NCBI GenBank assembly: GCA_031284445.1
Contig: JAISZW010000091.1
Span: 1 to 45,044 of the forward strand
From: Candidatus Methanovirga basalitermitum
GTDB lineage: Archaea > Methanobacteriota > Methanobacteria > Methanobacteriales > Methanobacteriaceae
Direction of reading: 5' to 3'
DNA: 45,044 nt
A program made the position numbers and the translations under genes. Every line of letters starts with the position of its first letter. Position 1 is the first letter of the stretch. Below are positions 7,428 to 35,201 of the stretch, in pieces. The notes beneath the pieces were generated by a model. That model worked only from the letters and a program-made list of their open reading frames with translations. It was not told the origin of the DNA and did not search any database.

Positions 7428-7805
7428 ATGGTTATTAGTGTAAATATAACTGGATTAGATGAAATAACGCAAAAATTGGAAGAAGCAAAAAATAATATCC
7501 GTGACACCACACCAGTCATGCAAAACATATTGGATGAATCAGAATCTATACTTAAAAGTAAAGCACCAGTACGTACAGGGGCGTTAAGAGACAGTATCAG
7601 TAGTATTAATATGGGTACGAGTGGTGTTGTTGGCGATATCACACATAGCATTGAATACTTCCCATATGTGATTTATGGTACACGTCCTCATCCTATTAAT
7701 CATCCAGGGACAAAACCCAACCCATTCATAGAGGATTCAATACCTATTATTGAGGCTGAAGCAGATACGTTAATGAGTAAATGGTTAACACAAATATTTG
7801 GTTAA
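7428..7805 (+). CDS. HK97 gp10-family head-tail connector / tail-completion protein
   Basis: 'KSKAPVRTGALRDSI...IEYFPYVIYGTRPH' matches the gp10-family core (aPvdTGaLrdSi ... YapyVEyGT). The 125-aa size is typical. Confidence 0.7.
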   Translation: MVISVNITGLDEITQKLEEAKNNIRDTTPVMQNILDESESILKSKAPVRTGALRDSISSINMGTSGVVGDITHSIEYFPYVIYGTRPHPINHPGTKPNPFIEDSIPIIEAEADTLMSKWLTQIFG

Positions 7806-8355: not shown

Positions 8356-11300
8356 ATGGCAGGAACGGATATAAGCATAGGATTCACAGGCGAAGACCAA
8401 GTAACAAGCATCATAGAGAGTGTCACATCTGCATTAGAGAAATTAAGTGATGTAGCAAGCAGTATTGGGTCTAATATGTCCAGTTTAGAGGATTCTTTAA
8501 CAGAGTCTGCTAATGGATTCAATAAAATAAACGATGATGTGGAAGAAACCAGTAAATCCTTTACTGATATGGAAAGTAGTATAGATTCTTTAACTGATGA
8601 TTTAGAGAGTGTAGAAAGTGTTGCAAGTGAATTAGGTGATAGTTTCAATAGTCTTGATAGTGATATGTCAAATGTATCAAATTCCTTTGAAGATGTTAAT
8701 ACAAGCATGGAATCTTTAGTAGATAGTGCAGAACATGTAACTATCAACTTAGATGAATTAAATAATTATACTAATAATATTAGTAATGATATGAATAATA
8801 TATCTGATTCAGCAGCCTCTGCAGGTTCAGCCCTTGGAGATATGGCTTCAGAGATAGGATTAAACACAGGACAATTTGGAAGCATGTCCAATGCAGCAGG
8901 AGGATTATTCGATAGTTTATCAAACCTAGCAAATGGAGGAACTATAACCACTACTGCACTTGCTGCAGTAGGTGTGAGTTTAGCAGGATTAATAAACTAT
9001 ACTGGGGAAGTTAACGATTCATGGAGCAGATTAGAAGGCATAACAACCAGCACAGGAGGTAGCTTCGATTCCTTGAAAAACAGTATAAGTAGTGTGAGTC
9101 AAGAAACAGCAACCAGTGTAGGCAGTCTACGTTCAGCTGCTACCAGTATGGAGTTATATGGTGCAAGTACCGAGCAGGTGGAGAAGATATTACCAAACCT
9201 AGGTGTGGGTGCTTTTTATGCTCATAAGTCAGTTGACCAATTAGGACAAACCATGTCTGTACTTGCAAGCCGACCCACAGCTATGGCAAGGTCATTCACA
9301 CAACTCGGAACAAGCCTTAAACAAGTAGCAGAAGCTAATGGGATGACCGAGAAAGAATTCCAGGATGCATGGAAGACCATGACAGTTGACCAGCGTTTAG
9401 CAGCCATCAGCAAAGGATTACATACAAGTGAAGCAGAAATAAAAAACTGGAAGAACAGCTGGTCATACAGTCTCGGAGAAGCACAGAACGCAATAAACAA
9501 AGGCATGGGAGCTATTAAAGATGTTATCAACCTATCAGGAATAATACCAGCACTAAAAAGTGCAGGTGAAACAATCTACAACATCATCAACAACTACCTA
9601 ATCAAACCATTCGCATCATTAACAAGCAAAGACCCTGGACTAGCAAAAATAGCAGCACAACTAGCAGTAGGATTAGCAGCCATCGCAGGATTAGCAGGCA
9701 TAGCACTAACAGCAAAGAAAGTTATAAGTACAATTAAAAATGTATTTGGTGGTTTAGGCAGCCTAGGAAGTAGTGGTGGTGGTAATGTTGGTTTACCAAC
9801 ACCACCAACAGTCGATACAAAAATCGTGGATAAATGGAAGACATTAGGAGCTGATTTACGGAATATGGCAGCACAATTCATCAAAGCAAGTGTAGGGATA
9901 GCCATGGCCATGGCATTAATAACAGAAGCCATACTATTATTAGCAGCACCAATGGCAGCATTCGCAGCGGTTGGTGCAGTATCAAGTGCTTTGGGTGATA
10001 AGGTAGAGAAGGGTTACCAGGCAGTCTGGGACTTACAGATTGCCTTAGCTAAGATAGCACCATTACTCGCCGTGATAATTGGATTGGGTGCTATAATAGG
10101 TGGTGTCACTAGTCTAAGTGGTGGACTAGGATTAGTTGGTATAGGAGCAGCAATGATAGGAATAGCTGCTTTCATGACTATGGTATCAGAGGCACTCTTA
10201 TTAATGATACTACCACTCACAGCATTAGCAAGTGTGGGTGTGATGATAAGTGGACAATTACCTAACCTGGAGACAGCGAGTGTAGCCATTACTAAGTTAA
10301 GTGAAACATTACCTAAAGTACTAACCAGTTTAGCCATGTTAACAGTGATCAACATAGGAATCGATCTACTTGCTATAAGTAGTGTGATTGGTTGGATTAT
10401 CACTGGTTTCGGATCACTCGTAGTGGCAGGCCTAGACATAGCACTAAAAAACATACAGAAACTAGCAGACGCAATAAACAACAGCAACATACCAATCTTA
10501 GACACCAGTAAAGTGGAAAGCATCAAACAATGCGTTGAAGTCATAAGCAACCTGAAAACAATACAAGACAAAATAACAGGCGGCACAATAGGGTCAATAA
10601 TACAGGGAATCCTACAATTCCTACAAATAGGAGAAGACCCAAGCACAACACTAAAACCACAATTAGATAATCTGCGTAAGATAGCAACGGTTATCAACAC
10701 AGCTGAAATACCATTAGTAACGGATACTATTAGTGGTAGTATAAGTGCTATTGGTACTGTCTTGAATAATGTTAGTAGTGCTTATACAAGTTATAGTAGT
10801 GCTGCGGCTAGTTTTAGTGCTGCTATAGCGGGTAGTAATGTTGCGGGTGCGAGTTGGGGTAGCTTCAAATCAGGTGAAGCATTCAACCAGACTGGTGGTA
10901 TAGGTGAACAATTAACAAGCATGCTAACAGAATTATCAACCATAGCAGCAATATTGCAAATGAAAGAGGGTTATGATGATTTAAAGAACTTCAGCAGTGA
11001 TAACATACCAATCAGCCAAATAAACAGTATAGGAAGTGCATTAACCAGTATAAGTAGTGCTATTAACAGCATACCAACAATCGAAGTATCAGACAAATTA
11101 ACGAGTACAGCTGGTGCTATCAGATACACCCTCTCGGCATTAGATGGTGTAGCAGGGGAATTAGTTAAAGGAACAGCAACATACGCCCAATTACTATTAG
11201 GTTATGTTGCAGCATTAGTGGTGGCGGCAGGTGTGAATAGTGTTAGTAGTGGTTTAAGAGCAGCTCAAAACGCTATTAACAACATACCAACAGTAGACTC

Positions 11301-11985
11301 CAGCAGCATACCAGGTAAAACAGCAGCAGTACGAACAGCATGGACACGTATACGAGAATTAGCAGATGCGATCACAGGAGGAGGGCTCAGCTGGGTTATA
11401 AGCTCATTAACAGGAGCATCATCACTATCACTAGCAGCAAACACCGCAGCTATAGGAGTACGAGGAGTGCAAACAGCAGTTAACATCGCGAGCTCAGCAG
11501 GAGACATAGCCATCAACCGACTAAACCAAATAGCAGACTTCCTACAAAGCGTTAAAGACGCAGAAGACGCAGCCAAAAAAATAGTAGGAGGATTCATAGA
11601 CTGGTTTAAAAAACCATGGGAAATAATCACCAACGACGAAAATAAAGAAAAAATGACATCACTTCCAAGTGGTATGATGAACGTTGGTGTCACACCATAC
11701 CTAACAGGCGGACTATCAGATATTTTATCTGATTTAAACCAACCCATAAAAAACAGTAGACGGAATGAAAACATTCTAAGTAATATTTTATCAGCTGTTA
11801 GCGGTAAACGAAAAATAGATTTAAATCATAATGTATCATTCCAATTAGATATTACTGCTGATGGTAATACTAGTAGTTATATTGATGGTAAAGAAGATTT
11901 CAAGAAGATACTACGAGAAGCATTAGATACAAGGGATATTCAGCAAGGACTAACCGAAGCAATCACACGAAACATGAAAATCTAA
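8356..11985 (+). CDS. Tail tape measure protein
   Basis: A 1209-aa ORF. The N-terminus is an acidic Ser/Asp/Glu coiled coil, followed by a TP901-type core-like segment (LRSAATSMELYGASTEQVEKILPNLG). The middle holds long Gly/Ala/Ile/Leu hydrophobic stretches and the C-terminal half is Ala/Ser-rich. Confidence 0.8.
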   Translation: MAGTDISIGFTGEDQVTSIIESVTSALEKLSDVASSIGSNMSSLEDSLTESANGFNKINDDVEETSKSFTDMESSIDSLTDDLESVESVASELGDSFNSLDSDMSNVSNSFEDVNTSMESLVDSAEHVTINLDELNNYTNNISNDMNNISDSAASAGSALGDMASEIGLNTGQFGSMSNAAGGLFDSLSNLANGGTITTTALAAVGVSLAGLINYTGEVNDSWSRLEGITTSTGGSFDSLKNSISSVSQETATSVGSLRSAATSMELYGASTEQVEKILPNLGVGAFYAHKSVDQLGQTMSVLASRPTAMARSFTQLGTSLKQVAEANGMTEKEFQDAWKTMTVDQRLAAISKGLHTSEAEIKNWKNSWSYSLGEAQNAINKGMGAIKDVINLSGIIPALKSAGETIYNIINNYLIKPFASLTSKDPGLAKIAAQLAVGLAAIAGLAGIALTAKKVISTIKNVFGGLGSLGSSGGGNVGLPTPPTVDTKIVDKWKTLGADLRNMAAQFIKASVGIAMAMALITEAILLLAAPMAAFAAVGAVSSALGDKVEKGYQAVWDLQIALAKIAPLLAVIIGLGAIIGGVTSLSGGLGLVGIGAAMIGIAAFMTMVSEALLLMILPLTALASVGVMISGQLPNLETASVAITKLSETLPKVLTSLAMLTVINIGIDLLAISSVIGWIITGFGSLVVAGLDIALKNIQKLADAINNSNIPILDTSKVESIKQCVEVISNLKTIQDKITGGTIGSIIQGILQFLQIGEDPSTTLKPQLDNLRKIATVINTAEIPLVTDTISGSISAIGTVLNNVSSAYTSYSSAAASFSAAIAGSNVAGASWGSFKSGEAFNQTGGIGEQLTSMLTELSTIAAILQMKEGYDDLKNFSSDNIPISQINSIGSALTSISSAINSIPTIEVSDKLTSTAGAIRYTLSALDGVAGELVKGTATYAQLLLGYVAALVVAAGVNSVSSGLRAAQNAINNIPTVDSSSIPGKTAAVRTAWTRIRELADAITGGGLSWVISSLTGASSLSLAANTAAIGVRGVQTAVNIASSAGDIAINRLNQIADFLQSVKDAEDAAKKIVGGFIDWFKKPWEIITNDENKEKMTSLPSGMMNVGVTPYLTGGLSDILSDLNQPIKNSRRNENILSNILSAVSGKRKIDLNHNVSFQLDITADGNTSSYIDGKEDFKKILREALDTRDIQQGLTEAITRNMKI

Positions 11986-18857: not shown

Positions 18858-20558
18858 ATGTACGAATTCACCACCACCACTACTAAAGAACAGGACACCA
18901 TAAAACATAAACATGATGAAAAGTATGATGATAATAAGAATGATCTTGTTGGAGAATATAGTGACACCACCCTCCAACAACACCAAACAAGAAAAAAGGG
19001 GTTTTATCATCATCCGAAACTCGAAATAAAGAAAAACGGGTACCACTTCACCCAAAAAATAATAATATACGAAAATAGGGAAGATAAAACAAAAAACCTG
19101 AACCTAAATGCGATAAAAAGAGAAATAATAAAAGTATTAAAACATAATAATATAGTCACACTAAACCAAAAAATTTACAAGAAACAAGAAACCCCAAATC
19201 CTAAAATAGAAGGCTTACACTTACTCCAATTAGATGAACTATCACGAGCACTAATAAACTACTGTGAAACAATAGAAGAAGCCTGGGATGTAGATGAAGA
19301 AAAAGTAAAAGCATGGATAATAGGATCAACAACCAAAATCTATAAAAGATGGGAAGACATAGGCTTCAACAACGGAATACTAAAATACAGAAACCGAGAA
19401 TGGGGATTTAAAAAAATAAGTGAAATAAATAAAAACAAATTAATCCCACGACAACACTACAACCAAACATACGAGTACATGGATTTATCTGATTATGATT
19501 TTATAAACTCAAACCTTGAATTATTTAAATTAATCATTACAAGTACAGATACAGAAGAAAAAGGACTGCAAAACTGCAAAAATTTAGCATATGCTATAGG
19601 CTATTTGCTAATAGGTAATAATACGCAAGAAGAAATAATAATAGTCCTACAAGGAGCACCAGGCAGCGGTAAAACAACAATAACCAATATCATAGGAGAT
19701 TTAGTCAATGGAGACATTGGAGAATACGCTGATAGTAATAGTGACAGTAAATACAACAGCATAATCGGGAACGAAATAGCATTATTCCAGGAACTAGATA
19801 ATAACGTACTCAGTAAGATAAACAGCACACTAAAAAAAATTAGTGGAGGTGAAAACTTAACATACAACCTTCTATACCAAAATACGAAGCCTGTTTTAGT
19901 GAAACAAGAAACACCGAAGATATTAATCGTAACTAACCACAATTTAAGCTTTGATGAAGCAATGCTAAGCAGAACAATCCCCATCACATTCACCATAAAC
20001 CATCGATCCAGTGAAAACAGTCCTAAAATCCCTTTCTATGAAAAGATCATCTTAGAACAGAAAACAGACATAATCAACCTATGCATAAACTACTACCTCC
20101 AAAACAAGACAATAGACCATCTACACAAAAAAACACAACCGTTCAACAAACCAGACTGGGTAAACGAAAACTACACTATAACATACAATATAAATGAAGA
20201 AGGAGAATCACTCGAAGCATTCAAAGACAGAATAAAAAGAGTATGGGACACATACACGCACAATCCAATAAAACAAAACGAATACGAGAAGTTAGAACCA
20301 TTATCCTTCCCCAGCTTCTTCCAACGCCTACTCAAGGATATGAGTTACGATGATGCGAGTTTAACATATTTAAACGAACATGCACGTCGGTATTGTTTAG
20401 AAAACGATTATCCATATGATCGAGATCTCACACTCAGAACTTTAAAAGGCAAACATTACTTCAACAACCACAAACTCAACATAATAAGATTAGATTTCTA
20501 TATAAAAACCAAACATTACCATTTAACCTTCATACCTGGTTTATGTTTAACTTTGTAA
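18858..20558 (+). CDS. Superfamily 3 replicative helicase (D5 / P4-alpha C-terminal type)
   Basis: Walker A is LQGAPGSGKTT, Walker B is IALFQELD and motif C is ILIVTNHN. It lies directly after the prim-pol. Confidence 0.75.
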   Translation: MYEFTTTTTKEQDTIKHKHDEKYDDNKNDLVGEYSDTTLQQHQTRKKGFYHHPKLEIKKNGYHFTQKIIIYENREDKTKNLNLNAIKREIIKVLKHNNIVTLNQKIYKKQETPNPKIEGLHLLQLDELSRALINYCETIEEAWDVDEEKVKAWIIGSTTKIYKRWEDIGFNNGILKYRNREWGFKKISEINKNKLIPRQHYNQTYEYMDLSDYDFINSNLELFKLIITSTDTEEKGLQNCKNLAYAIGYLLIGNNTQEEIIIVLQGAPGSGKTTITNIIGDLVNGDIGEYADSNSDSKYNSIIGNEIALFQELDNNVLSKINSTLKKISGGENLTYNLLYQNTKPVLVKQETPKILIVTNHNLSFDEAMLSRTIPITFTINHRSSENSPKIPFYEKIILEQKTDIINLCINYYLQNKTIDHLHKKTQPFNKPDWVNENYTITYNINEEGESLEAFKDRIKRVWDTYTHNPIKQNEYEKLEPLSFPSFFQRLLKDMSYDDASLTYLNEHARRYCLENDYPYDRDLTLRTLKGKHYFNNHKLNIIRLDFYIKTKHYHLTFIPGLCLTL

Positions 20559-20990: not shown

Positions 20991-22166
20991 TTATTTTTCC
21001 TTCAAACCTAAATTAACCAACTCTTCCTTCAACAAATCCTTTAAATCCTGTCTTAAACTATACATTCCATCCTCTAAGTCTTTAATCTTCTTATCCTTCA
21101 AACTTAACGCATCATGAAATTCATCTTTCAATTTCTTAACTTCCGCACTATCCAAATTAGTAACAACAGTCTTATAAATCGTTAACCGTGGTAAATACTC
21201 TAAATACTTCTCTTTTATACGTATCGGATTGTTTTTAAAATAAGTCTCCGTTATAGTATCAGCTTTACGACCCTGAATAGTATTAGCAAAACTTATATCC
21301 TCTATAGTGGTTGCGTTGAATTTACGGAGGTTGTGAGGACGGAAGAAACTATATTTATTAACTTTACCCCAACCCAACTTATCGTTAAGTCTTGCGAACA
21401 ATTTATTCATCCCAACATTCTTTATATTGAATAAAAAGTCAGATGGTTTAAGTTTTTCCCTTGTTCGTAAATATTTAACAATCATCGTTGTTGCTTCATA
21501 ACTGCAACAAGTGTAATATGGATAATCTGTTTTAATTCTCACTAATTCGAATAATGGTACAACATCATCTTGCTTACCTATCTCATTTAAACAATCATCT
21601 ATGTTATTTGTTTTATGATATTCATTAGTTGCAGTTATGAAGTCACTAACATGTATATGTAATGTCTCATTTACAGCTGTTCCACTACTGCTCATGAATA
21701 AAATTAAAGATTTCAGTAATAAATTGTTTGTTGCTTCTAAAGCCTGTTGTATATGTTCAATTGTGGGTATGTCATGGTATCGTTCATGATGATCTTCTCT
21801 TAATTGGACTGGTGGCATGTAAGGGATTTCAATCTCAAAATGACGGTAAAAACTTTTGATCTTTGTGAAATATTCTTTTATAGTGCTTGTACCATAATTC
21901 TTATCTTGTATGAGGTGTTGTCTGTAATGTTTCAGTCTTTTGTTTATTTGTCTGTTCTTTGCTCTTATTCTTTCTTCTTCTTCACAGTCCGCTTCACTTA
22001 TTAAAGCTGATAAACTTTTATTATTTATTTTAACATAAATTTTCAATGCATCAACATAAGTTTTGATTGTTTTCTGTGCGAGATTTCTCTCAGCAATGAA
22101 TTCTTGAAATTTATGATCGTTCATTATTTTTTTTCTTTCATTATTTTTTATAGTTTTTTTTGTCAT
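20991..22166 (-). CDS. int: Tyrosine recombinase / phage integrase
   Basis: The N-terminus is SAM-like (FQEFIAERNLAQKTIKTYVDAL). Box II is RPHNLRKFNATT...QGRKADTITETY (H-x-x-R and catalytic Y). It holds the terminal position in the provirus. Confidence 0.8.
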   Translation of the reverse strand: MTKKTIKNNERKKIMNDHKFQEFIAERNLAQKTIKTYVDALKIYVKINNKSLSALISEADCEEEERIRAKNRQINKRLKHYRQHLIQDKNYGTSTIKEYFTKIKSFYRHFEIEIPYMPPVQLREDHHERYHDIPTIEHIQQALEATNNLLLKSLILFMSSSGTAVNETLHIHVSDFITATNEYHKTNNIDDCLNEIGKQDDVVPLFELVRIKTDYPYYTCCSYEATTMIVKYLRTREKLKPSDFLFNIKNVGMNKLFARLNDKLGWGKVNKYSFFRPHNLRKFNATTIEDISFANTIQGRKADTITETYFKNNPIRIKEKYLEYLPRLTIYKTVVTNLDSAEVKKLKDEFHDALSLKDKKIKDLEDGMYSLRQDLKDLLKEELVNLGLKEK

Positions 22167-27670: not shown

Positions 27671-28504
27671 ATGATAAGCATTTCTTCAATAAGAGAATAT
27701 ATGTTCTGTCCACATAAATTTTATTTGAGATATAATATGGATGAACATGATGAAGAAAATGTCTTTTTAAATAAAACCGTGAAACAGATGAGAATTGATG
27801 TATATGATTTAATTCAAAGGAATATAAGAGGATTAAAAGCTGAAATGGATCTTATGGATATTAAAAACCATTTAAAGAGAACCATCAAAGATGCTTTAAA
27901 GTCTTCTTTAAGTATTTTAAAAGAGCAACATCAAAGTTCAGATGAAGAAATTGATAGAATCAAAAGAGAAATACTGAACGAGGTATGCTTTATAATCGAT
28001 ATTTTAAGTTTAAAATCTCTAAGAGCAATGCAAGCACTTGAGATTGATGGTCAAAAAATAGCTAAAATGTTTTTCCCAACTTCAATGTATAGTTATTTAA
28101 TAAGAGACGTAAACTTAGAAATTATTGGATCGTGCGATAAGATAGAGATCGTTGATGGTCGTTATTATCCAATAAATATTAAAAATTCTAACCCCCCTAT
28201 CGTAGGAATTTGGGATTCTGATGCTATTGAATTAGTGGCGAATGCTATGTTAATAGAACAAGAATTTGATAGTGAAGTATTTGTGGGTTTCATTGACTAT
28301 GTTAAAATCGGTGAGAAACGACCTGTTATAATGGATTCAAAATTAAGAAAAGGTCTTTTTAAGGTTCTCCATGAAATTAAAGAAGTCATGGAAGAGGATG
28401 TCGTTCCAGAACCCAGATTTGATCTGAAAAAATGTGGAATCTGTTTTTATAAAGAAGTATGTCATAGAAATGAAGAAGATTACCCTGAAGATACCATCTA
28501 TTAG
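27671..28504 (+). CDS. Cas4/RecB-like PD-(D/E)xK nuclease with a 4-Cys cluster (orphan; no CRISPR array or other cas genes in the window)
   Basis: GGAGG SD is present. The N-terminus has 'IREYMFCPHKFYLRY', the middle has 'IGSCDKIEIV...YPINIK' and the C-terminus has 'CGICFYKEVC'. Confidence 0.6.
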   Translation: MISISSIREYMFCPHKFYLRYNMDEHDEENVFLNKTVKQMRIDVYDLIQRNIRGLKAEMDLMDIKNHLKRTIKDALKSSLSILKEQHQSSDEEIDRIKREILNEVCFIIDILSLKSLRAMQALEIDGQKIAKMFFPTSMYSYLIRDVNLEIIGSCDKIEIVDGRYYPINIKNSNPPIVGIWDSDAIELVANAMLIEQEFDSEVFVGFIDYVKIGEKRPVIMDSKLRKGLFKVLHEIKEVMEEDVVPEPRFDLKKCGICFYKEVCHRNEEDYPEDTIY

Positions 28505-28605
28505 TTTTGATTAAATACCTAAATTTTGAACTTTTTATCGATGATTTCTAAAAATATATGCATATCTTGAGTTTTATGAGCATAATATCAAATGGAGGTG
28601 AAATA

Positions 28606-28734
28606 ATGAATCCAGTAACTGAAATCGTTAAAAATGGTTGCGATGCTTGTATAGGTTGTGTAGGTTGTGTTGCTTGCACTCCAGAAAGTGATGCTTTATT
28701 TGCATTATTACTAACTGGTACTATTGGATACTAA
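28606..28734 (+). CDS. Cys-ladder RiPP precursor peptide candidate (42 aa), not in the ORF track
   Basis: SD GGAGGTG (28594-28600) lies 5 nt before the ATG. The sequence is MNPVTEIVKNGCDACIGCVGCVACTPESDALFALLLTGTIGY. It sits directly upstream of a radical SAM/SPASM enzyme. Confidence 0.6.
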   Translation: MNPVTEIVKNGCDACIGCVGCVACTPESDALFALLLTGTIGY

Positions 28735-28909
28735 AATACAGTAAATAGTATATCATATTTGTTAACAAATGATACTGTGATATATTGTGAATGTACTGTT
28801 TATTGTAGATAAATAGATGATTTAAATATTGTTGGGATTTTACATAAATCCCCTTAAATTTTAATTTAAAATGTTAAAGATTAAAACTATGAATATTCTT
28901 AAAAGAATT

Positions 28910-28939
28910 ATAAAATCCTAACCTATAAAATCCTAACCT
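28910..28939. repeat. Exact 15-bp tandem duplication (ATAAAATCCTAACCT x2) just upstream of the maturase gene
   Basis: Read directly; it ends 30 nt before the 28970 ATG. Confidence 0.9.
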
Positions 28940-28969
28940 TAGATGTAAAATTTAGAAGGAAGTGGCTCA

Positions 28970-30319
28970 ATGCAAGATATTTACCCATATATTAAAGAAA
29001 ATTTTTATTTTCGTCCAGGTCCTATATCCTATATTTACTCAAAAAATGAAAATAAATATTTTCACTTAAATAAAGATGGCTCTGATATTGTAATAAGATG
29101 TAATGGAAAAGAAAGTATTGATAAAATATCTAATGACCTTGCATCTATTTATAATGAAGATGTCTATGAGATTAACAAAATAATATTAGACTATATAAAT
29201 TCCCAAGAGTTCATTGGAACATCTGATAAGAGAAGACCTGTAGATGATAAGTATTGGATAAATCCAGATATACAAACACCTGTTCATTTAAGTCTTGAAT
29301 TAACAGATTATTGTAATTACACTTGTAGACATTGCTATAGGGATAGTAATGCTAAAAAGGATAATTATGCAAAAACTGAGGAATTATTAGATATTTTACT
29401 TGAATTTAGAAAAAATGGTGTTGCAATAATTGAATTAAGTGGTGGTGAACCCCTATCTCATCCTGATTTTGAGAAAATCCTAAAATTCTCTTTAGAAACA
29501 TTTGATGTTGTTGCTGTTATTACTAACGGCTCATTAATCACTGAAAAACTTTTAGATAGTCTACAAAAATATAAAAGCAAGATAGTTTTTCAAGTTGGTT
29601 TACATAGTGCTGATGAAAAATATATGGACTGGTTCTGTGGATACAAGAATGCATTTAAGAGAAGTAAAAAAGTTATTAAACAAATAACTGATAGAAAATT
29701 TCATTTAAGAGTTGTTATGATGGTGACTCCTTTTAATATGAATAATATTTTTGAAACCGTTGAATTAGCAAGTTCATTAGGTATTCCATTTAAACCATTA
29801 GAACACAATTATAACTTAGGAATGTATACCATTGGTATTAGTCCTGTTACTCCCATGGGTAGAGGTGAAAAATTCCCAGAACTGATCTTTAAACAAGAAG
29901 ATATGAATATCTTCTTAAAAGAAATGGAAAAAGTAAGAGTTGAGTTTGCTGATTTTATCTTTAAGATGCCAGAACACCATCCTATCTACAACTTATCTGA
30001 AAGAGGCAATTGTGGTGTTGGCTCAAGGTCATTAACAATTACTCCTCAAGGAGATATGAAGTTATGTGGTATGGGTGATGAAAAAATACTTAGTTGGGGT
30101 AATATTTATAAAGAAAACCTATCTGATATTTTTGCTAAGAATTTTGGAGCTATTGTAGGTGAGATTAAAACTCCAGAAAAGAATATTTGTGGGGATTGTG
30201 AACACTTGATTTTTTGTATGCCATGCTTAGCAAGAGCATTTTTAAAGTTTAGTGAAATAGGAGAATCATGCACTTGGGGAGTTAATCTAAATTTAAATGA
30301 TGTTTTAAATAAATTCTGA
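28970..30319 (+). CDS. Radical SAM / SPASM-domain peptide maturase with an N-terminal PqqD-like (RRE) region
   Basis: The CxxxCxxC box is in LELTDYCNYTCRHCY, with GGEPL nearby. The C-terminal auxiliary-cluster cysteines are NCGVGSRS...LCGM and CGDCEHLIFCMPC. The first ~95 aa (YFRPGP...FHLNKDGSDIVIRCNGKESIDKISNDLASIY...) read like a PqqD-type recognition element. Confidence 0.85.
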   Translation: MQDIYPYIKENFYFRPGPISYIYSKNENKYFHLNKDGSDIVIRCNGKESIDKISNDLASIYNEDVYEINKIILDYINSQEFIGTSDKRRPVDDKYWINPDIQTPVHLSLELTDYCNYTCRHCYRDSNAKKDNYAKTEELLDILLEFRKNGVAIIELSGGEPLSHPDFEKILKFSLETFDVVAVITNGSLITEKLLDSLQKYKSKIVFQVGLHSADEKYMDWFCGYKNAFKRSKKVIKQITDRKFHLRVVMMVTPFNMNNIFETVELASSLGIPFKPLEHNYNLGMYTIGISPVTPMGRGEKFPELIFKQEDMNIFLKEMEKVRVEFADFIFKMPEHHPIYNLSERGNCGVGSRSLTITPQGDMKLCGMGDEKILSWGNIYKENLSDIFAKNFGAIVGEIKTPEKNICGDCEHLIFCMPCLARAFLKFSEIGESCTWGVNLNLNDVLNKF

Positions 30320-30446
30320 AGAATGTCTTTCTTGATTACAAAAATTTTCGATTTTTGGTGATCTCTGATTTTCTCATGCTTAAGGAAATATTTGATTTCC
30401 TGTTTTCATTTATCATTTTTAAAAAGTTTAGAGGAGTTTTTATAAA

Positions 30447-31376
30447 ATGGAGGATAAAAATAGTTTTTTTGTAGGTGAAGATGTAGCTATTCATCTTAAC
30501 AATGTAGATAAGTCCTATCAGGATTTTCAAGCTTTAAAAAATGTTTCTTTTGAAGTGAAAAAAGGTCAAATTTTTGGTTTTTTAGGTAGCAATGGTTCAG
30601 GTAAAACAAGTACAATTAAGTTGATTTTAGGTTTAATTACCCCATCTTCAGGTGAAGTAAAGTTATGTGGCAAAAGTCCACTTAATAAAGAATTAAAATC
30701 AAAAGTAGGGTCTTTGTTAGAATTCAATGGTTTAATAGCTAATTTAACTGGTATGGAGAATTTAACATTTTGGGGAGGTTTATATGACATTAACAAAAAG
30801 GAAGCCATTCCAAAATCATGGGAATTACTAAAACTCTTCAAATTAAGTGAATGGGCTGATGTTAAAGTTTCAAATTATTCCTACGGAATGCAAAAAAGAT
30901 TAGGGCTTGCACGATCGTTAATTCAAAATCCTGAATTAATAGTATTAGATGAACCAACTTTAGGTGTTGACCCAGAAACAAGACAATTAATTAGAAAAAT
31001 AATTAAAAAACTTGCAAACGAGGGTAAAACTATTTTTTTCTCATCCCATGAATTAGATGAGGTTCAAAAGGTTTGTTCTCATTTAGCAATAGTTAAAAAT
31101 GGAGAAATAATTTATAAAGGCAGTTTAAATAAATTTATTGGGGATTACAGCAAATCTGAACTTTGCATTAACCTTAACACTATTGAAGAAGCTAAAAAGT
31201 TGTTATCATCAATAGAAAAAAAATTCAATGCTAAAAGAAATGGAACTCTAATAAGAATTGAAGATATAGGTGATTTTAATCTTGAAGATTATTCTGATTA
31301 TAATATTTCAAATATCTACAGTAATAAGTCAACATTAGAGGAAAGCTATTTTAACATAAATACGGAGGAAGTGTGA
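30447..31376 (+). CDS. ABC transporter ATP-binding protein
   Basis: Walker A is GSNGSGKTS, the signature-like motif is YSYGMQKRLGLARSL, Walker B is LIVLDEPT and the H-loop is SSHEL. Confidence 0.85.
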   Translation: MEDKNSFFVGEDVAIHLNNVDKSYQDFQALKNVSFEVKKGQIFGFLGSNGSGKTSTIKLILGLITPSSGEVKLCGKSPLNKELKSKVGSLLEFNGLIANLTGMENLTFWGGLYDINKKEAIPKSWELLKLFKLSEWADVKVSNYSYGMQKRLGLARSLIQNPELIVLDEPTLGVDPETRQLIRKIIKKLANEGKTIFFSSHELDEVQKVCSHLAIVKNGEIIYKGSLNKFIGDYSKSELCINLNTIEEAKKLLSSIEKKFNAKRNGTLIRIEDIGDFNLEDYSDYNISNIYSNKSTLEESYFNINTEEV

Positions 31377-32102
31377 ATGAGTACAGCTATTAAAACTATG
31401 ATTATGAAAGAATTAAAATCTTCACTATCAAATAATAAATATATCCTATCTCTATTACTAAACATATTTATAGTTGTTATTTTAGCATTTGAGTTAACAA
31501 ATAGGATTAACAAAATAGATCCTTTAACCACTTCAATGTTGGAACTTTTATTTATAGGATTACCTCTATTTAACATTCTTATATTAAATATATCCTTATT
31601 AAATGAGATATTTGTTAATGAAAAATTAGTCAAAACCTTTGAAGCAATTTTAACAACTCCATTATCACTTTTTGAAATAACTATCTCCAAATTAATATCT
31701 ATAGCTATTTTAACTTATATTCTTGTTATAAGTTCAGTTATGTCATTGTATTTAATATGGGGATTAAGATTAAATAGTTTCATTTCATTTCCAATTGAGA
31801 TTTGGGTAATGATATTTATTATAGTTCCTTTATTTGGAATTTTATATGGTGCATTATCATCTTATCTCATTTTAAGATTTAATTACACAAGATTAACTGA
31901 GATATTAAATATTCCAATTATATTTGGATTTATTTTCTTATTTAGAGATCCTTCTAAATTATTAGAGGTTTTTAGTTCTGGAAAAATAGTTAGTTATCAT
32001 ACTATAATTAGTCTATCCATTCTATTGATAGTATTCTACAGTATTATACTACTGTTAATAAAAAAAATCAATGTAGAGAATGTTACCTTATCTAATTCCT
32101 GA
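31377..32102 (+). CDS. ABC-2-type transporter permease
   Basis: The ATG directly abuts the ATPase stop. The 241-aa protein has ~6 hydrophobic segments. Confidence 0.65.
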   Translation: MSTAIKTMIMKELKSSLSNNKYILSLLLNIFIVVILAFELTNRINKIDPLTTSMLELLFIGLPLFNILILNISLLNEIFVNEKLVKTFEAILTTPLSLFEITISKLISIAILTYILVISSVMSLYLIWGLRLNSFISFPIEIWVMIFIIVPLFGILYGALSSYLILRFNYTRLTEILNIPIIFGFIFLFRDPSKLLEVFSSGKIVSYHTIISLSILLIVFYSIILLLIKKINVENVTLSNS

Positions 32103-32180
32103 CTTATATTATATAATATTTTATTTTAGGAATTAAAAAATTGTACACAACCATTTTAAATAAATTTTAGGAGTTAAAAT

Positions 32181-32279
32181 ATGTCAGAATTTTTAAATCA
32201 ATATCTACCTATTGTATTAATATTTGTTTTTTGTGTTTTTATATCTAAATATCTTAATAAATTAAAAAAAGATAGATGA
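32181..32279 (+). CDS. 32-aa single-TM micro-protein (candidate)
   Basis: AGGAG lies 9 nt upstream. The sequence is MSEFLNQYLPIVLIFVFCVFISKYLNKLKKDR. It follows the ABC permease. Confidence 0.3.
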   Translation: MSEFLNQYLPIVLIFVFCVFISKYLNKLKKDR

Positions 32280-32374
32280 TTTTTAAAATAAATAATTATA
32301 TAAATATATATCTAATAAGATTAAGATTATATAAAAATAATAAATATTAAAAATTATATATGAGGTAGATTATT

Positions 32375-32665
32375 ATGGAAGATAAAGATTTAATAAAAAA
32401 ATGTGAAGTTGGAAATTTTAATTTAGACAATGATTTAATACAAGGCTGTAAAGATGTTCTTGAAAATTCTAAAAAACATGGAAAAAAATTAGATATTAGC
32501 GATGATGAAGTTCAAACTTATCTTGAAATGGCTGAAAATCTAAAACCTAAAGATGTTACAAAAGCTCTTGAACTCGCTCTTAAAATACAAAGTAGTGAAA
32601 CCATTAAAGATACTGAACTTAGAAATCAAGCATCAAGATTAATCAGAGCAATAAATATGAGTTAA
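32375..32665 (+). CDS. Hypothetical protein (96 aa, helical, charged)
   Basis: The ORF has GAGGTAG upstream. No motif recognised. Confidence 0.45.
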   Translation: MEDKDLIKKCEVGNFNLDNDLIQGCKDVLENSKKHGKKLDISDDEVQTYLEMAENLKPKDVTKALELALKIQSSETIKDTELRNQASRLIRAINMS

Positions 32666-34643: not shown

Positions 34644-35201
34644 CTATTTCTTATTATCCCATGGTCTTAATTGTTTATTTTCTATTTTTAAAATATTCAA
34701 TATCTTACCAACAATAAAATCCATCATATCATAAATGTCTTTTGGATTATTATAAAATCCAGGCATTGCAGGTAAAATCACTCCACCTTCCTCACTAATT
34801 TTTAACATGTTATGAATATGAACTGTTCTAAGTGGTGTTTCCCGTGGAACAACAATTAACATCCTTTTTTCTTTCAATGCGACATCAGCAACTCTTGTAA
34901 TTGAATTATTCCCATAACCATTTGCAATAGCAGATAACGTCTTCATAGAACAAGGAACGACAATTAAAGAATCAAATTTAAATGAACCACTATTTATAGA
35001 ACTTGTTAAATCACTAGATTCATAGTACATATCTGATAAATTCTTAATATCATCTAACTCTTCATCTAACTCATATCCTATTATAGTTTCCGCAGATTTA
35101 GTTATTAAAAGCCCAGTTTCAATTCCTATTTCTTTTAGAGCCCTCAACAATCTAACACCATAAGAAACCCCACTTGCTCCAGTAATAGCTATTACAATCA
35201 T
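34644..35201 (-). CDS. ubiX: Flavin prenyltransferase UbiX/Pad1 family
   Basis: 'IVIAITGASGVSYGVRLL', 'VVPCSMKTLSAIANGYGNNSITRVADVALKEKRMLIVVPRETPL' and 'LPAMPGFY' are present. Confidence 0.85.
   Translation of the reverse strand: MIVIAITGASGVSYGVRLLRALKEIGIETGLLITKSAETIIGYELDEELDDIKNLSDMYYESSDLTSSINSGSFKFDSLIVVPCSMKTLSAIANGYGNNSITRVADVALKEKRMLIVVPRETPLRTVHIHNMLKISEEGGVILPAMPGFYNNPKDIYDMMDFIVGKILNILKIENKQLRPWDNKK

What the first reader, a model, noticed from the sequence alone, without database searches (positions are those of the whole stretch)
28540..32279. Cys-ladder peptide + RRE-radical SAM/SPASM + ABC exporter: candidate archaeal thioether-type RiPP cluster
Seen:
- An unannotated 42-aa ORF (28606-28734, with a strong SD) is followed 235 nt later by a 449-aa protein.
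- That protein has the radical-SAM box CxxxCxxC (LELTDYCNYTCRHCY), a ~95-aa N-terminal extension that reads like a PqqD-type peptide-recognition element, and a Cys-rich SPASM-like tail (NCGVGSRS..LCGM, CGDCEHLIFCMPC).
- Next comes an ABC ATPase whose stop (31374-31376) abuts the ATG of a ~6-TM ABC-2 permease, then a 32-aa TM micro-ORF.

Established: precursor + RRE-rSAM/SPASM + ABC export/immunity is the canonical layout of sactipeptide/ranthipeptide (SCIFF-like) loci, characterised almost entirely in Firmicutes.

Inference: this is a peptide natural-product locus in an archaeon. I recall only in-silico families for methanogen Cys-rich peptides and no characterised product, so its chemistry (sactionine, ranthionine or another crosslink) and role (antimicrobial, metal-binding, signalling) are open.
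Basis: partly seen in the sequence, partly recalled or inferred. Interest (0 to 1): 0.85.

Follow-up and report, generated by a model that had tools for sequence, protein, structure and literature searches.

The report
Thurincin-H-like peptide cluster in a methanogen
A termite-gut methanogen (Candidatus Methanovirga) carries a small gene cassette that most likely makes and exports a cross-linked, bacteriocin-like peptide. The cassette is related to the Bacillus antibiotic thurincin H, a peptide class predicted in archaea by genome mining but, in the literature I could search, not yet shown experimentally.

Summary

- **The peptide gene is real.** The 42-aa ORF has a GGAGGTGA ribosome-binding site and is conserved upstream of the maturase in all five related Methanovirga loci. 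Its core is under strong purifying selection.
- **The maturase has the expected parts.** The 449-aa protein has the CxxxCxxC box, seven invariant SPASM cysteines and an N-terminal PqqD/RRE-like domain.
- **Its relatives are sactipeptide enzymes.** The best family model is the subtilosin maturase AlbA. The closest characterised relative I could retrieve is ThnB, the thurincin H sactisynthase (30% identity, E 1e-65).
- **The peptide aligns with the thurincin H precursor.** The four Cys of ThnA align with the last four of this peptide's five Cys, and the tails end in the same register. This predicts a five-rung nested hairpin, C24/21/18/15/12 to A30/A33/L36/T39/Y42.
- **The transporter belongs to the cassette.** The ABC ATPase (34% identical to ThnD) and the permease follow the maturase in many distant relatives.
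- **Peptide and maturase co-occur widely.** 16 of 23 metagenomic relatives with enough upstream sequence have a Cys-ladder ORF upstream.

Verdict: this is a new, uncharacterised archaeal member of the thurincin H/subtilosin-type sactipeptide family. The chemistry (S-Cα), the number of bridges, leader removal and the biological role remain inferred.

The parts
27671..28504 (+). Cas4-like PD-(D/E)XK nuclease (277 aa). It is an adjacent gene, not shown to belong to the cassette.
   Evidence: It matches TIGR00372 cas4 (E 6e-25) and Pfam Cas_Cas4. It sits directly upstream of the peptide in all six Methanovirga loci, even where the outer flanks differ. It is absent from distant relatives. The window has no CRISPR array.
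28594..28601 (+). Ribosome-binding site GGAGGTGA of the precursor gene
   Evidence: Read directly from the sequence. GGAGGTGA is kept at the same distance from the start codon in L001-L004, and is GAGGTGAG in L005.
28606..28734 (+). Precursor peptide (42 aa). It has a short leader of about 9-11 aa, a five-Cys ladder (C12, C15, C18, C21, C24), a TPESD turn and a hydrophobic 13-residue tail ending in Y42.
   Evidence: Searches give the ORF. It is conserved in L001-L005 and in P0061. Core pN/pS is 0 to about 0.37. It aligns collinearly with the thurincin H precursor ThnA.
28834..28862 (+). Terminator-like stem-loop GGGATTT-TACAT-AAATCCC followed by a T-rich run, between the precursor and the maturase
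   Evidence: This was the only terminator-like site found in 28400-32500, where shuffles give 0.9 by chance. Its sequence is not conserved in the orthologues. It is therefore weak evidence.
28909..28938 (+). Perfect 15-nt tandem repeat TATAAAATCCTAACC x2, each copy carrying a TATA-like element, ending 32 nt before the maturase ATG. It may be a promoter element.
   Evidence: Searches find the repeat. It is not clearly conserved in the orthologues. The promoter role is inference only.
28970..30319 (+). RRE-radical SAM-SPASM maturase (449 aa), an AlbA/ThnB-like predicted sactisynthase
   Evidence: Pfam gives Radical_SAM, SPASM and a weak PqqD match. NCBIfam AlbA scores 140 bits over the full length. 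It is 29.8% identical to ThnB over 429 aa, E 1e-65. Invariant cysteines are C115/C119/C122 plus C348, C366, C407, C410, C416, C419 and C434. The AF2 model has pLDDT 75, and Foldseek's top hits are SkfB, SuiB and CteB.
30447..31376 (+). ABC transporter ATP-binding subunit (309 aa), DrrA/ThnD-like
   Evidence: It matches TIGR01188 drrA (217 bits) and the lantibiotic-protection ABC model TIGR03740 (175 bits). It is 34% identical to ThnD, E 1.6e-34. A homologue lies directly downstream of the maturase in L006, L010, L015-L019, L021 and others.
31377..32102 (+). Membrane permease partner (241 aa, about 5-6 TM segments), ABC-2-like by position
   Evidence: Its ATG abuts the ATPase stop codon. Hydropathy shows the TM segments. 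It has no Pfam or NCBIfam match. Its similarity to ThnE is weak (E 0.03). It is conserved after the ATPase in L006, L010, L015-L019 and L021.
32181..32279 (+). Conserved 32-aa single-TM micro-protein with a basic C-terminus. It is a candidate immunity or accessory peptide.
   Evidence: It has one hydrophobic segment. An intact ORF is present in L001, L002, L003 and L005: MSEFLNQ[YW]LPI...SKYL.K.KK. It occurs only in the Methanovirga loci. Its role is inferred.

Best explanation
This is a four- to five-gene RiPP cassette of the thurincin H/subtilosin (type I, nested-hairpin sactipeptide) kind, carried on the chromosome of a termite-gut methanogen of the genus Candidatus Methanovirga.

The proposed pathway has four steps:
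1. The 42-aa precursor is translated. Its short N-terminal leader (M-N-P-x-T-E...) is bound by the PqqD-like RRE domain of the maturase.
2. The radical SAM cluster (C115/C119/C122) cleaves SAM reductively. The resulting 5'-deoxyadenosyl radical abstracts a hydrogen atom from an acceptor residue in the C-terminal half of the peptide.
3. With help from the two SPASM auxiliary Fe-S clusters, the thiol of a ladder cysteine is joined to that carbon as a thioether. Repeating this zips the peptide into a rigid hairpin. In the thurincin H register the bridges would be C24-A30, C21-A33, C18-L36, C15-T39 and C12-Y42.
4. The DrrA/ThnD-like ABC ATPase and its permease export the product and/or protect the producer. 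The 32-aa membrane peptide may add immunity.

Shown here: gene content, homology, conservation, co-occurrence and collinearity with ThnA.

Inferred: thioether formation itself (probability about 0.7), S-Cα regiochemistry (about 0.55), five bridges in exactly that register (about 0.35), leader removal by a protease encoded elsewhere, and an antimicrobial or competitive role.
For: - **Maturase domains and cysteines.** Radical_SAM + SPASM + N-terminal PqqD-like. Three radical-SAM cysteines and seven SPASM cysteines are invariant across 12 homologues down to 27% identity.
- **Family placement.** NCBIfam AlbA is the top model for the window protein (140 bits, against 98 for the next model). It is also top for its relatives P0006, P0008, P0011 and P0012 (148-209 bits).
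- **Closest characterised relative retrieved.** This is the thurincin H maturase gene on B. thuringiensis HD-1 plasmid pBMB431. It sits in the canonical thn cluster beside four tucA/thuricin17 precursor genes. Pairwise identity is 29.8% over 429 aa, E 1e-65. The ATPase is 34% identical to ThnD.
- **Structure.** The AF2 model (pLDDT 75) has an N-terminal beta-strand/three-helix domain. Foldseek's best matches are the RRE-bearing RiPP maturases SkfB, SuiB, CteB and TigE, over 397-485 aligned columns.
- **Peptide register.** MAFFT aligns ThnA's four Cys with Cys 15/18/21/24, and the two tails end in the same register. The +6/+9/+12/+15 rule recovers thurincin H's published acceptors N19, T22, T25 and S28 (PMC8172795). 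Applied here it ends exactly on the C-terminal Tyr.
- **Tail length.** In all 15 family peptides tabulated, the tail is at least 3n+3 residues long.
- **Periodicity in bacterial relatives.** L012 and P0074 keep polar E/Q, Q, H, Q, H at exactly +6 to +18, while the residues between them vary.
- **The peptide is a real gene.** A conserved SD precedes it and the core has pN/pS of 0-0.37.
- **Co-occurrence.** 5 of 5 close loci have the peptide, as do L006, L010, L011 and L012 and 16 of 23 metagenomic relatives, against a background of 0.01.
- **Transporter linkage.** The ABC pair lies downstream in many relatives.
Against: - There is no experimental or expression evidence of any kind.
- The AlbA model score (140 bits) is far below its equivalog cut-off (850). 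Identity to ThnB is only about 30%.
- According to PMC10288494, AlbA and ThnB sit in a paraphyletic clade that also holds enzymes doing C-C, C-O and rearrangement chemistry. Clade membership therefore does not fix the reaction.
- The predicted acceptors here (Ala, Ala, Leu, Thr, Tyr) are mostly hydrophobic. In thurincin H and in L012/P0074 they are polar.
- In other family members (L006, L010, L015) the +6/+9... positions show no obvious pattern.
- No leader peptidase is encoded in the cassette, unlike thn (ThnP) and alb (AlbE/F).
- The permease matches no family model, and its similarity to ThnE is marginal (E 0.03).
- The PqqD Pfam hit is just below the gathering score.
Confidence: 0.7

Rival explanations
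1. This is a thioether RiPP with non-alpha linkages (a ranthipeptide-like product). The same cassette logic applies, but the Cys sulfur is joined to beta or gamma carbons of the acceptor residues.
For: The fold and domain set are shared with CteB (Foldseek E 6e-14). A Cys-rich precursor with a rSAM/SPASM enzyme fits both classes. PMC10288494 stresses that sequence similarity predicts sacti- versus ranthi-chemistry poorly.
Against: AlbA is the best model by a wide margin. The PapB ranthipeptide-maturase model is absent from the window protein's top 25 and scores only 54-68 bits for relatives that score 170-209 bits on AlbA. ThnB is the closest relative among annotated plasmid records. The precursor is collinear with ThnA rather than with SCIFF-type peptides.
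Confidence: 0.13
2. The maturase performs a different radical reaction on the peptide, such as C-C or C-O cross-linking, epimerisation or another rearrangement. The five cysteines would then serve another purpose, such as disulfides or metal/Fe-S binding in the mature product.
For: PMC10288494 reports the AlbA/ThnB neighbourhood of the rSAM-SPASM tree as polyfunctional. The predicted acceptor residues here are not the polar type seen in thurincin H.
Against: The CxxC ladder is the only feature invariant across the whole peptide family, from archaea to high-GC bacteria. It is the donor motif of thurincin H. The tail-length rule of at least 3n+3 residues holds in all 15 peptides.
Confidence: 0.1
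3. The locus is not a peptide natural-product locus. The rSAM enzyme is a housekeeping or cofactor maturase (anSME, heme or PQQ type), and the small ORF is incidental.
For: The flanking genes are housekeeping: NucS, a Hel308-like helicase, YigZ, UbiX and PdxS. The rSAM also matches NirJ, AhbD, PqqE and MoaA models at lower scores.
Against: Those models score 64-96 bits over the rSAM core only, while AlbA scores 140 bits over the full length including the RRE. The peptide is under purifying selection. It co-occurs with the enzyme across domains. The outer flanks are not conserved even within the genus, whereas the cassette is.
Confidence: 0.03

Closest known systems
Thurincin H (= thuricin 17) system of Bacillus thuringiensis: ThnA precursors, ThnB sactisynthase, ThnD/E ABC-2 pair, ThnT, ThnP, ThnR, ThnI
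   Same: - The maturase is homologous over almost its full length, including the PqqD/RRE domain (29.8% identity, E 1e-65).
- The ATPase is homologous to ThnD (34% identity).
- The precursor has a similar short leader (9 aa in ThnA, an estimated 9-11 aa here), a CxxC-repeat donor ladder and a roughly 18-residue acceptor tail that ends in the same register.
- The precursor gene lies just upstream of the maturase.
   Different: - There are five ladder Cys instead of four. The extra one aligns with core residue 1 of thurincin H.
- There is one precursor copy instead of three or four.
- There is no S8 protease (ThnP), no GntR regulator, no ThnT-type exporter and no ThnI homologue. A 32-aa TM peptide is present instead.
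- The predicted acceptors are mostly hydrophobic.
- The host is an archaeon, and the cassette is chromosomal rather than on a megaplasmid.
Subtilosin A system of Bacillus subtilis (SboA, AlbA-G)
   Same: AlbA is the best-scoring NCBIfam model, covering profile positions 31-439 of 442. From my own knowledge, subtilosin also has a short leader, Cys donors in the N-terminal half with acceptors in the C-terminal half, and an ABC ATPase plus membrane proteins (AlbC/AlbD, with the small AlbB as immunity protein).
   Different: - The score of 140 bits is far below the 850-bit equivalog cut-off.
- There are no AlbE/AlbF-type peptidases, so there is no basis for head-to-tail cyclisation.
- The Cys spacing differs (regular CxxC here).
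- BLASTP finds no alignment between the two precursors.
SCIFF/ranthipeptides (CteB, PapB and relatives)
   Same: The maturase architecture is RRE + rSAM + SPASM, and the precursor is Cys-rich. CteB is a significant structural match.
   Different: The PapB model scores much lower than AlbA in relatives. The precursor architecture differs: a contiguous CxxC ladder followed by an acceptor tail. In PapA, by contrast (own knowledge), donor and acceptor lie close together within repeated motifs.
Archaeal lanthipeptides of Haloarchaea, the only experimentally validated archaeal RiPPs according to PMC12144867
   Same: Both are ribosomal peptides from archaea that carry, or are predicted to carry, thioether cross-links.
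   Different: The enzymology is entirely different (LanM dehydration and cyclisation versus radical SAM). The host lineage and habitat also differ. rSAM-type archaeal RiPPs are so far only antiSMASH predictions.

Membership tests
Sactipeptide biosynthetic cluster, type I nested hairpin (thurincin H/subtilosin type) | Radical SAM maturase with a CxxxCxxC cluster and a C-terminal SPASM domain able to hold auxiliary Fe-S clusters | tested here: met
   Pfam finds Radical_SAM and SPASM. C115/C119/C122 and seven SPASM cysteines (Cx17C...CxxCx5CxxC...C) are invariant in 12 homologues.
Sactipeptide biosynthetic cluster, type I nested hairpin (thurincin H/subtilosin type) | N-terminal PqqD-like RiPP recognition element fused to the maturase | tested here: met
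   Pfam PqqD matches residues 26-76 (E 1.5e-4, 22.5 bits, against a cut-off of 23.4). The AlbA model aligns from residue 26. The AF2 model shows a strand/three-helix domain at residues 5-85, and the full-length Foldseek matches are to RRE-bearing maturases. NCBI names the paralogue P0008 and the ThnB orthologues 'PqqD family peptide modification chaperone'.
Sactipeptide biosynthetic cluster, type I nested hairpin (thurincin H/subtilosin type) | Maturase homologous to a biochemically characterised sactisynthase | tested here: met
   It is 29.8% identical to ThnB over 429 aa, E 1e-65. AlbA is the top NCBIfam model. No phylogeny including enzymes of other chemistries was built.
Sactipeptide biosynthetic cluster, type I nested hairpin (thurincin H/subtilosin type) | Adjacent precursor with Cys donors in the N-terminal half and an acceptor tail long enough for nested bridges | tested here: met
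   The peptide is collinear with ThnA. Its tail of 18 residues equals 3n+3 for n=5. It is conserved and under purifying selection.
Sactipeptide biosynthetic cluster, type I nested hairpin (thurincin H/subtilosin type) | Sulfur-to-alpha-carbon thioether bonds in the mature product | not testable with these tools
   This needs MS/MS, chemical desulfurisation or NMR of the modified peptide.
Sactipeptide biosynthetic cluster, type I nested hairpin (thurincin H/subtilosin type) | Dedicated leader peptidase in the cluster (common but not universal) | tested here: not met
   No protease domain occurs between 27671 and 33137, and there is no ThnP homologue.
Sactipeptide biosynthetic cluster, type I nested hairpin (thurincin H/subtilosin type) | ABC transporter for export or immunity | tested here: met
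   A DrrA/ThnD-like ATPase and an abutting permease are present, and the pair recurs downstream of the maturase in relatives.
NCBIfam NF012164 AlbA (subtilosin maturase equivalog) | Whole-protein score at or above the curated cut-off of 850 bits | tested here: not met
   The score is 140.1 bits. The protein is a relative of AlbA, not an orthologue.
Ranthipeptide/SCIFF systems | Maturase matching PapB/CteB-type models better than sactisynthase models, and a SCIFF-type precursor | tested here: not met
   PapB is not among the top 25 models for the window protein, and it scores 54-68 bits against 170-209 for AlbA in relatives. The precursor matches no NCBIfam or Pfam family.
Housekeeping rSAM-SPASM enzymes (anSME, NirJ/AhbD, PqqE, MoaA) | Score above the family cut-off and conserved non-peptide neighbours | tested here: not met
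   All these models score 64-96 bits, far below their cut-offs of 325-515 bits, and they cover only the rSAM-SPASM part and not the N-terminal RRE. The neighbours conserved across relatives are the peptide and the ABC pair.

The most novel reading that the evidence does not exclude
The product is the first archaeal sactipeptide and carries five nested S-Cα bridges. To my knowledge that is one more than any characterised sactipeptide. The outermost bridge would tie Cys12 to the C-terminal Tyr42, so almost the whole mature peptide would be one rigid ladder. It would be made by methanogens reported to live inside termite-gut flagellates. They might use it against competing symbionts, or as a signal within that three-way symbiosis. 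The cassette would belong to a large, unstudied family of 4- and 5-Cys 'NP-leader' ladder peptides spread across bacteria and archaea.
Probability: 0.35. Interest if true: 0.65.

Novelty: new member of a known kind. Interest (0 to 1): 0.5.

Why it matters
According to the literature retrieved here (PMC12144867), the only experimentally validated archaeal RiPPs are haloarchaeal lanthipeptides. Radical-SAM RiPPs of archaea are known only as bulk antiSMASH predictions.

This locus is a compact target of about 3.7 kb with a clear bacterial reference system, thurincin H. It comes with a specific, falsifiable structural prediction: five bridges, a mass loss of 10.08 Da, and named acceptor residues. 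It also has natural sequence variants from at least six species.

If the prediction is confirmed, three things follow:
- Sactionine chemistry would be shown to operate in Archaea.
- A five-bridge scaffold would be added to the class.
- It would become possible to ask what a protist-endosymbiotic methanogen does with a bacteriocin-like peptide.

The survey also indicates that 4- and 5-Cys ladder peptides with AlbA/ThnB-like maturases are common in metagenomes, and the examples scanned here match no Pfam or NCBIfam model.

Tried and rejected
- **Peptide vs SboA.** BLASTP of the peptide against my remembered SboA sequence gave no alignment. The sequences are too short and dissimilar, so the subtilosin comparison rests on the enzyme only.
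- **CRISPR repeat resemblance.** A CRISPR repeat upstream of the paralogous rSAM genes translates to MNPVMTEVQGC, which resembles this peptide's N-terminus. A local-alignment scan showed that 10 of 3000 window segments score as well. The 'MNP/NP' motif recurs in many family leaders. I treat the resemblance as chance. The window contains no copy of the repeat.
- **Nearby flavoprotein.** The flavoprotein at 34644-35201 might have been a LanD-type decarboxylase. It is a UbiX flavin prenyltransferase, 257 bits against a cut-off of 109.
- **Unmatched small proteins.** Pfam and NCBIfam found nothing for the precursor, the permease or the 32-aa peptide, nor for the bacterial ladder peptides.
- **Promoter scan.** The sigma-70 scan is at chance level and does not apply to archaea.
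- **Intergenic alignment.** The alignment across orthologues showed no conserved regulatory element, and the spacer varies from 235 to about 620 nt.
- **Supplement search.** The supplement of PMC10288494 is not held, so I could not check whether this family is one of its 'six new sactipeptide groups'.
- **Peptide database search.** The single-sequence search found only six Methanovirga-type entries. The profile search added mostly thuricin17 entries, which are there by construction because ThnA was in the profile.
- **Cas4-like gene.** I considered it as part of the cassette. It co-travels within the genus but is absent from distant relatives, so this stays undecided.

Full report
**1. The observation**

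- The small ORF at 28606-28734 encodes MNPVTEIVKNGCDACIGCVGCVACTPESDALFALLLTGTIGY. GGAGGTGA lies 4 nt upstream of its ATG.
- After a 235-nt spacer comes a 449-aa protein (28970-30319) that carries LELTDYCNYTCRHCY.
- Next is a 309-aa ABC ATPase (30447-31376). Its stop codon abuts the ATG of a 241-aa hydrophobic protein (31377-32102).
- Last is a 32-aa single-TM ORF (32181-32279).
- Pfam finds Radical_SAM, SPASM and an N-terminal PqqD match just below threshold in the 449-aa protein, and ABC_tran in the ATPase. It finds nothing for the peptide, the permease or the micro-ORF.

**2. Is the peptide a real gene, and is the host archaeal?**

A scan of one genome per species returned five loci with a 79-85% identical maturase. 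All are from MAGs titled Candidatus Methanovirga or Methanobrevibacter sp.. Members of Methanovirga are reported to live in lower termites, intracellularly in gut flagellates (PMC13135261). The window also encodes an archaeal-type diphthine-ammonia ligase, NucS and a Hel308-like helicase.

All five loci have the peptide ORF upstream of the maturase. It keeps the same SD and the same 42-aa length. A sixth, more divergent orthologue (P0061, 64% identical) was found next to the 69%-identical maturase.

In codons 12-42, synonymous differences far outnumber non-synonymous ones. The window against L001 shows 10 against 0, and pN/pS ranges from 0 to about 0.37 over all pairs. Residues 4-11 vary freely.

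The block Cas4-like / peptide / maturase / ATPase / permease / 32-aa ORF is syntenic in all loci, as far as each contig extends. The outer flanks differ in L003, L004 and L005.

**3. What the maturase is**

- **Family models.** The best NCBIfam model by a clear margin is the subtilosin maturase AlbA. It scores 140 bits (E 7e-41) and aligns residues 26-446 to profile positions 31-439 of 442. The next models (ScmF, NirJ2, mycofactocin, PqqE and others) score 98 bits or less and cover only the rSAM-SPASM part, not the N-terminal RRE. The AlbA score is far below the 850-bit equivalog cut-off, so this is a relative and not an orthologue. The same ranking holds for homologues down to 27-33% identity.
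- **Closest characterised relative.** A tblastn search of plasmid records gave Bacillus thuringiensis/cereus megaplasmid genes as best hits. The annotated region on pBMB431 of strain HD-1 is the thurincin H (thuricin 17) cluster. It contains an S8 peptidase, an ABC-2 permease, an ABC ATPase, a GntR regulator, four tucA precursor genes, the rSAM/SPASM gene, a large ABC exporter and a small protein.
- **Direct comparison.** The window maturase is 29.8% identical to ThnB over 429 residues (E 1e-65). The ATPase is 34% identical to ThnD (E 1.6e-34). The permease matches ThnE only marginally (E 0.03).
- **Cysteines.** In an alignment of 12 homologues, C115/C119/C122 and seven C-terminal cysteines are invariant: C348, C366, C407, C410, C416, C419 and C434, arranged Cx17C...CxxCx5CxxC...C. 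This is a complete SPASM signature.
- **Structure.** An AlphaFold2 model (mean pLDDT 75, pTM 0.73) shows strands and three helices in residues 5-85, ahead of the rSAM barrel. Foldseek against the PDB ranks SkfB, SuiB, CteB and TigE first, with alignments of 397-485 columns. All four are RRE-bearing RiPP maturases.

**4. What the peptide looks like next to thurincin H**

ThnA, read from the plasmid, is METPVVQPRDWTCWSCLVCAACSVELLNLVTAATGASTAS. The published bridges are Cys4-Ser28, Cys7-Thr25, Cys10-Thr22 and Cys13-Asn19 (PMC8172795). In other words, the donors are spaced CxxC, a five-residue loop follows, and the acceptors fall at every third residue.

MAFFT aligns ThnA's four Cys with Cys15, 18, 21 and 24 of the window peptide, and the two tails end in the same register. 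The extra Cys12 falls on core residue 1 of thurincin H.

Applying the +6/+9/+12... rule recovers N, T, T, S for ThnA. For the window peptide it gives A30, A33, L36, T39 and Y42. The tail of 18 residues is exactly the minimum (3n+3) needed for five nested rungs. This is a structural inference, not a demonstration.

**5. The wider family**

More distant maturase homologues also have ladder peptides immediately upstream.

- L006 is probably Methanobacteriales, because it has a split PolB fragment. Its peptide contains ...ECSACGGCGTCVVC....
- L010 has GGCDSCLYCLACAAC.
- Two bacterial contigs have 85-aa precursors with long leaders and ladders of four (L011) or five (L012) cysteines.

A metagenome scan with the family alignment returned 80 loci. 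Of the 26 strongest, 23 had at least 350 nt upstream. Sixteen of those carry a same-strand ORF with a CxxCxxC ladder within 900 nt upstream, against a background of about 0.01 such ORFs per 900 nt elsewhere in the same loci. Many also have the ATPase and permease directly downstream.

Ladders of four and five Cys both occur. Every tail in the 15 peptides tabulated is at least 3n+3 residues long.

In L012 and its relative P0074, the positions +6, +9, +12, +15 and +18 are E/Q, Q, H, Q, H, while the residues between them vary. This is the best independent hint that five acceptors with a three-residue period are used in this family.

Short-leader members often begin MNP..., or contain NP, and have 11 residues before the first Cys.

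**6. Mechanism proposed**

1. The RRE binds the leader.
2. Radical SAM chemistry abstracts a hydrogen atom from an acceptor residue.
3. Cys-S to carbon thioethers form with the help of the SPASM clusters, zipping the peptide into a hairpin.
4. The ABC pair exports the product and/or gives self-protection.
5. The conserved 32-aa TM peptide is a candidate immunity or accessory factor, by position only.

No peptidase is present in the cassette. Leader removal, if it happens, must use a protease encoded elsewhere.

My probabilities are about 0.7 for a thioether RiPP, about 0.55 for S-Cα bonds, and about 0.35 for the exact five-bridge register. The biological role (antimicrobial, competitive or signalling) is open.

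**7. Rivals**

- **A ranthipeptide-type linkage** is not excluded. Sequence similarity predicts regiochemistry poorly (PMC10288494). However, PapB-type models score far below AlbA.
- **A non-thioether reaction** is possible, because the AlbA/ThnB neighbourhood is polyfunctional. Yet the Cys ladder is the single invariant feature of the peptide family.
- **A housekeeping role** is effectively refuted by the model ranking, by the peptide's conservation and by its co-occurrence with the enzyme.

**8. Novelty**

In the paper library I found no paper on this locus or on a characterised archaeal sactipeptide. A 2025 survey states that antiSMASH predicts ranthipeptide and sactipeptide clusters in archaea, and that only haloarchaeal lanthipeptides have been validated experimentally (PMC12144867).

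The finding is therefore a new, uncharacterised member of a known kind. It has two variant features worth testing: a fifth rung and the lack of a dedicated protease. It is a good experimental target rather than a surprise.

**9. Context and things noticed in passing**

- Window positions 1-22166 look like an integrated tailed provirus.
- The same Methanovirga genomes carry a paralogous AlbA-like rSAM. It is followed by an A-T-TE NRPS-like gene and preceded by a CRISPR array.
- The translated CRISPR repeat resembles the peptide's N-terminus, but the similarity is at chance level.

Noticed in passing
window 1-22166: This stretch looks like an integrated tailed provirus that runs off the window start. 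It has an HK97-gp10-like tail component (7428-7805), a 1209-aa tape-measure protein (8356-11985), a P4-family primase (18858-20558) and an integrase (20991-22166, minus strand). Most other large ORFs have no family match. No tRNA gene lies at the junction.
   Followed up: partly
L008 1-5251 and L009 4197-8705 (Ca. Methanovirga procula / aequatorialis MAGs): The same genomes carry a paralogous AlbA-like RRE-rSAM-SPASM gene (P0008 and P0009, 32-33% identical to the window enzyme). It is directly followed by an ~800-aa AMP-binding / PP-binding / thioesterase (NRPS-like) protein. It is preceded by a CRISPR array with a ~36-nt repeat (GTATGAATCCTGTAATGACTGAAGTACAAGGTTGTG in L008; a variant in L009), 8 copies each. 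I saw no Cys-ladder precursor there, so its substrate is unknown.
   Followed up: partly
window 27671-28504: A stand-alone Cas4-like nuclease (277 aa) lies directly upstream of the precursor gene in all six Methanovirga loci, even where the outer flanks differ (L003, L004, L005). The window has no other cas genes and no CRISPR array. The gene is absent from distant relatives of the cassette. Whether it is functionally linked is unknown.
   Followed up: partly
L006 4420-4990: In this related locus (maturase about 46% identical, probably Methanobacteriales), the homologous precursor reads ATA where the ATG is expected, after a good SD. The maturase's RRE-coding region also lacks an ATG/GTG/TTG start at the homologous position, and the called gene is N-terminally truncated to 385 aa. 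This could reflect unusual start codons, a sequencing error or early decay.
   Followed up: no
window 28909-28938: A perfect tandem duplication of the 15-mer TATAAAATCCTAACC, each copy carrying a TATA-like element, ends 32 nt before the maturase start codon. It is not clearly conserved in the orthologues.
   Followed up: no
window 32181-32279; L001 5189-5284; L002 ~4560-4660; L003 5816-5911; L005 9169-9264: A 32-aa single-TM micro-protein (MSEFLNQ[YW]LPI...SKYL.K.KK) is conserved after the permease in every Methanovirga locus that extends far enough. It has its own SD and matches no family.
   Followed up: partly
metagenome loci L015-L039 (e.g. L015 3790-3924, L038 3756-3911, L039 541-853): There is a large, apparently unnamed family of short precursors with 4-5 (up to more than 8 in L032) CxxC-spaced cysteines. 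Many have 'NP'-containing leaders and 11 residues before the first Cys. They sit upstream of AlbA/ThnB-like maturases in contigs with GC from 0.29 to 0.70, and the examples scanned match no Pfam or NCBIfam model.
   Followed up: partly
window 29783-29821 (maturase residues ~272-284): The Methanovirga maturases share a 13-residue insertion (PFKPLEHNYNLGM) that is absent from all more distant homologues. The model's confidence is low there.
   Followed up: no
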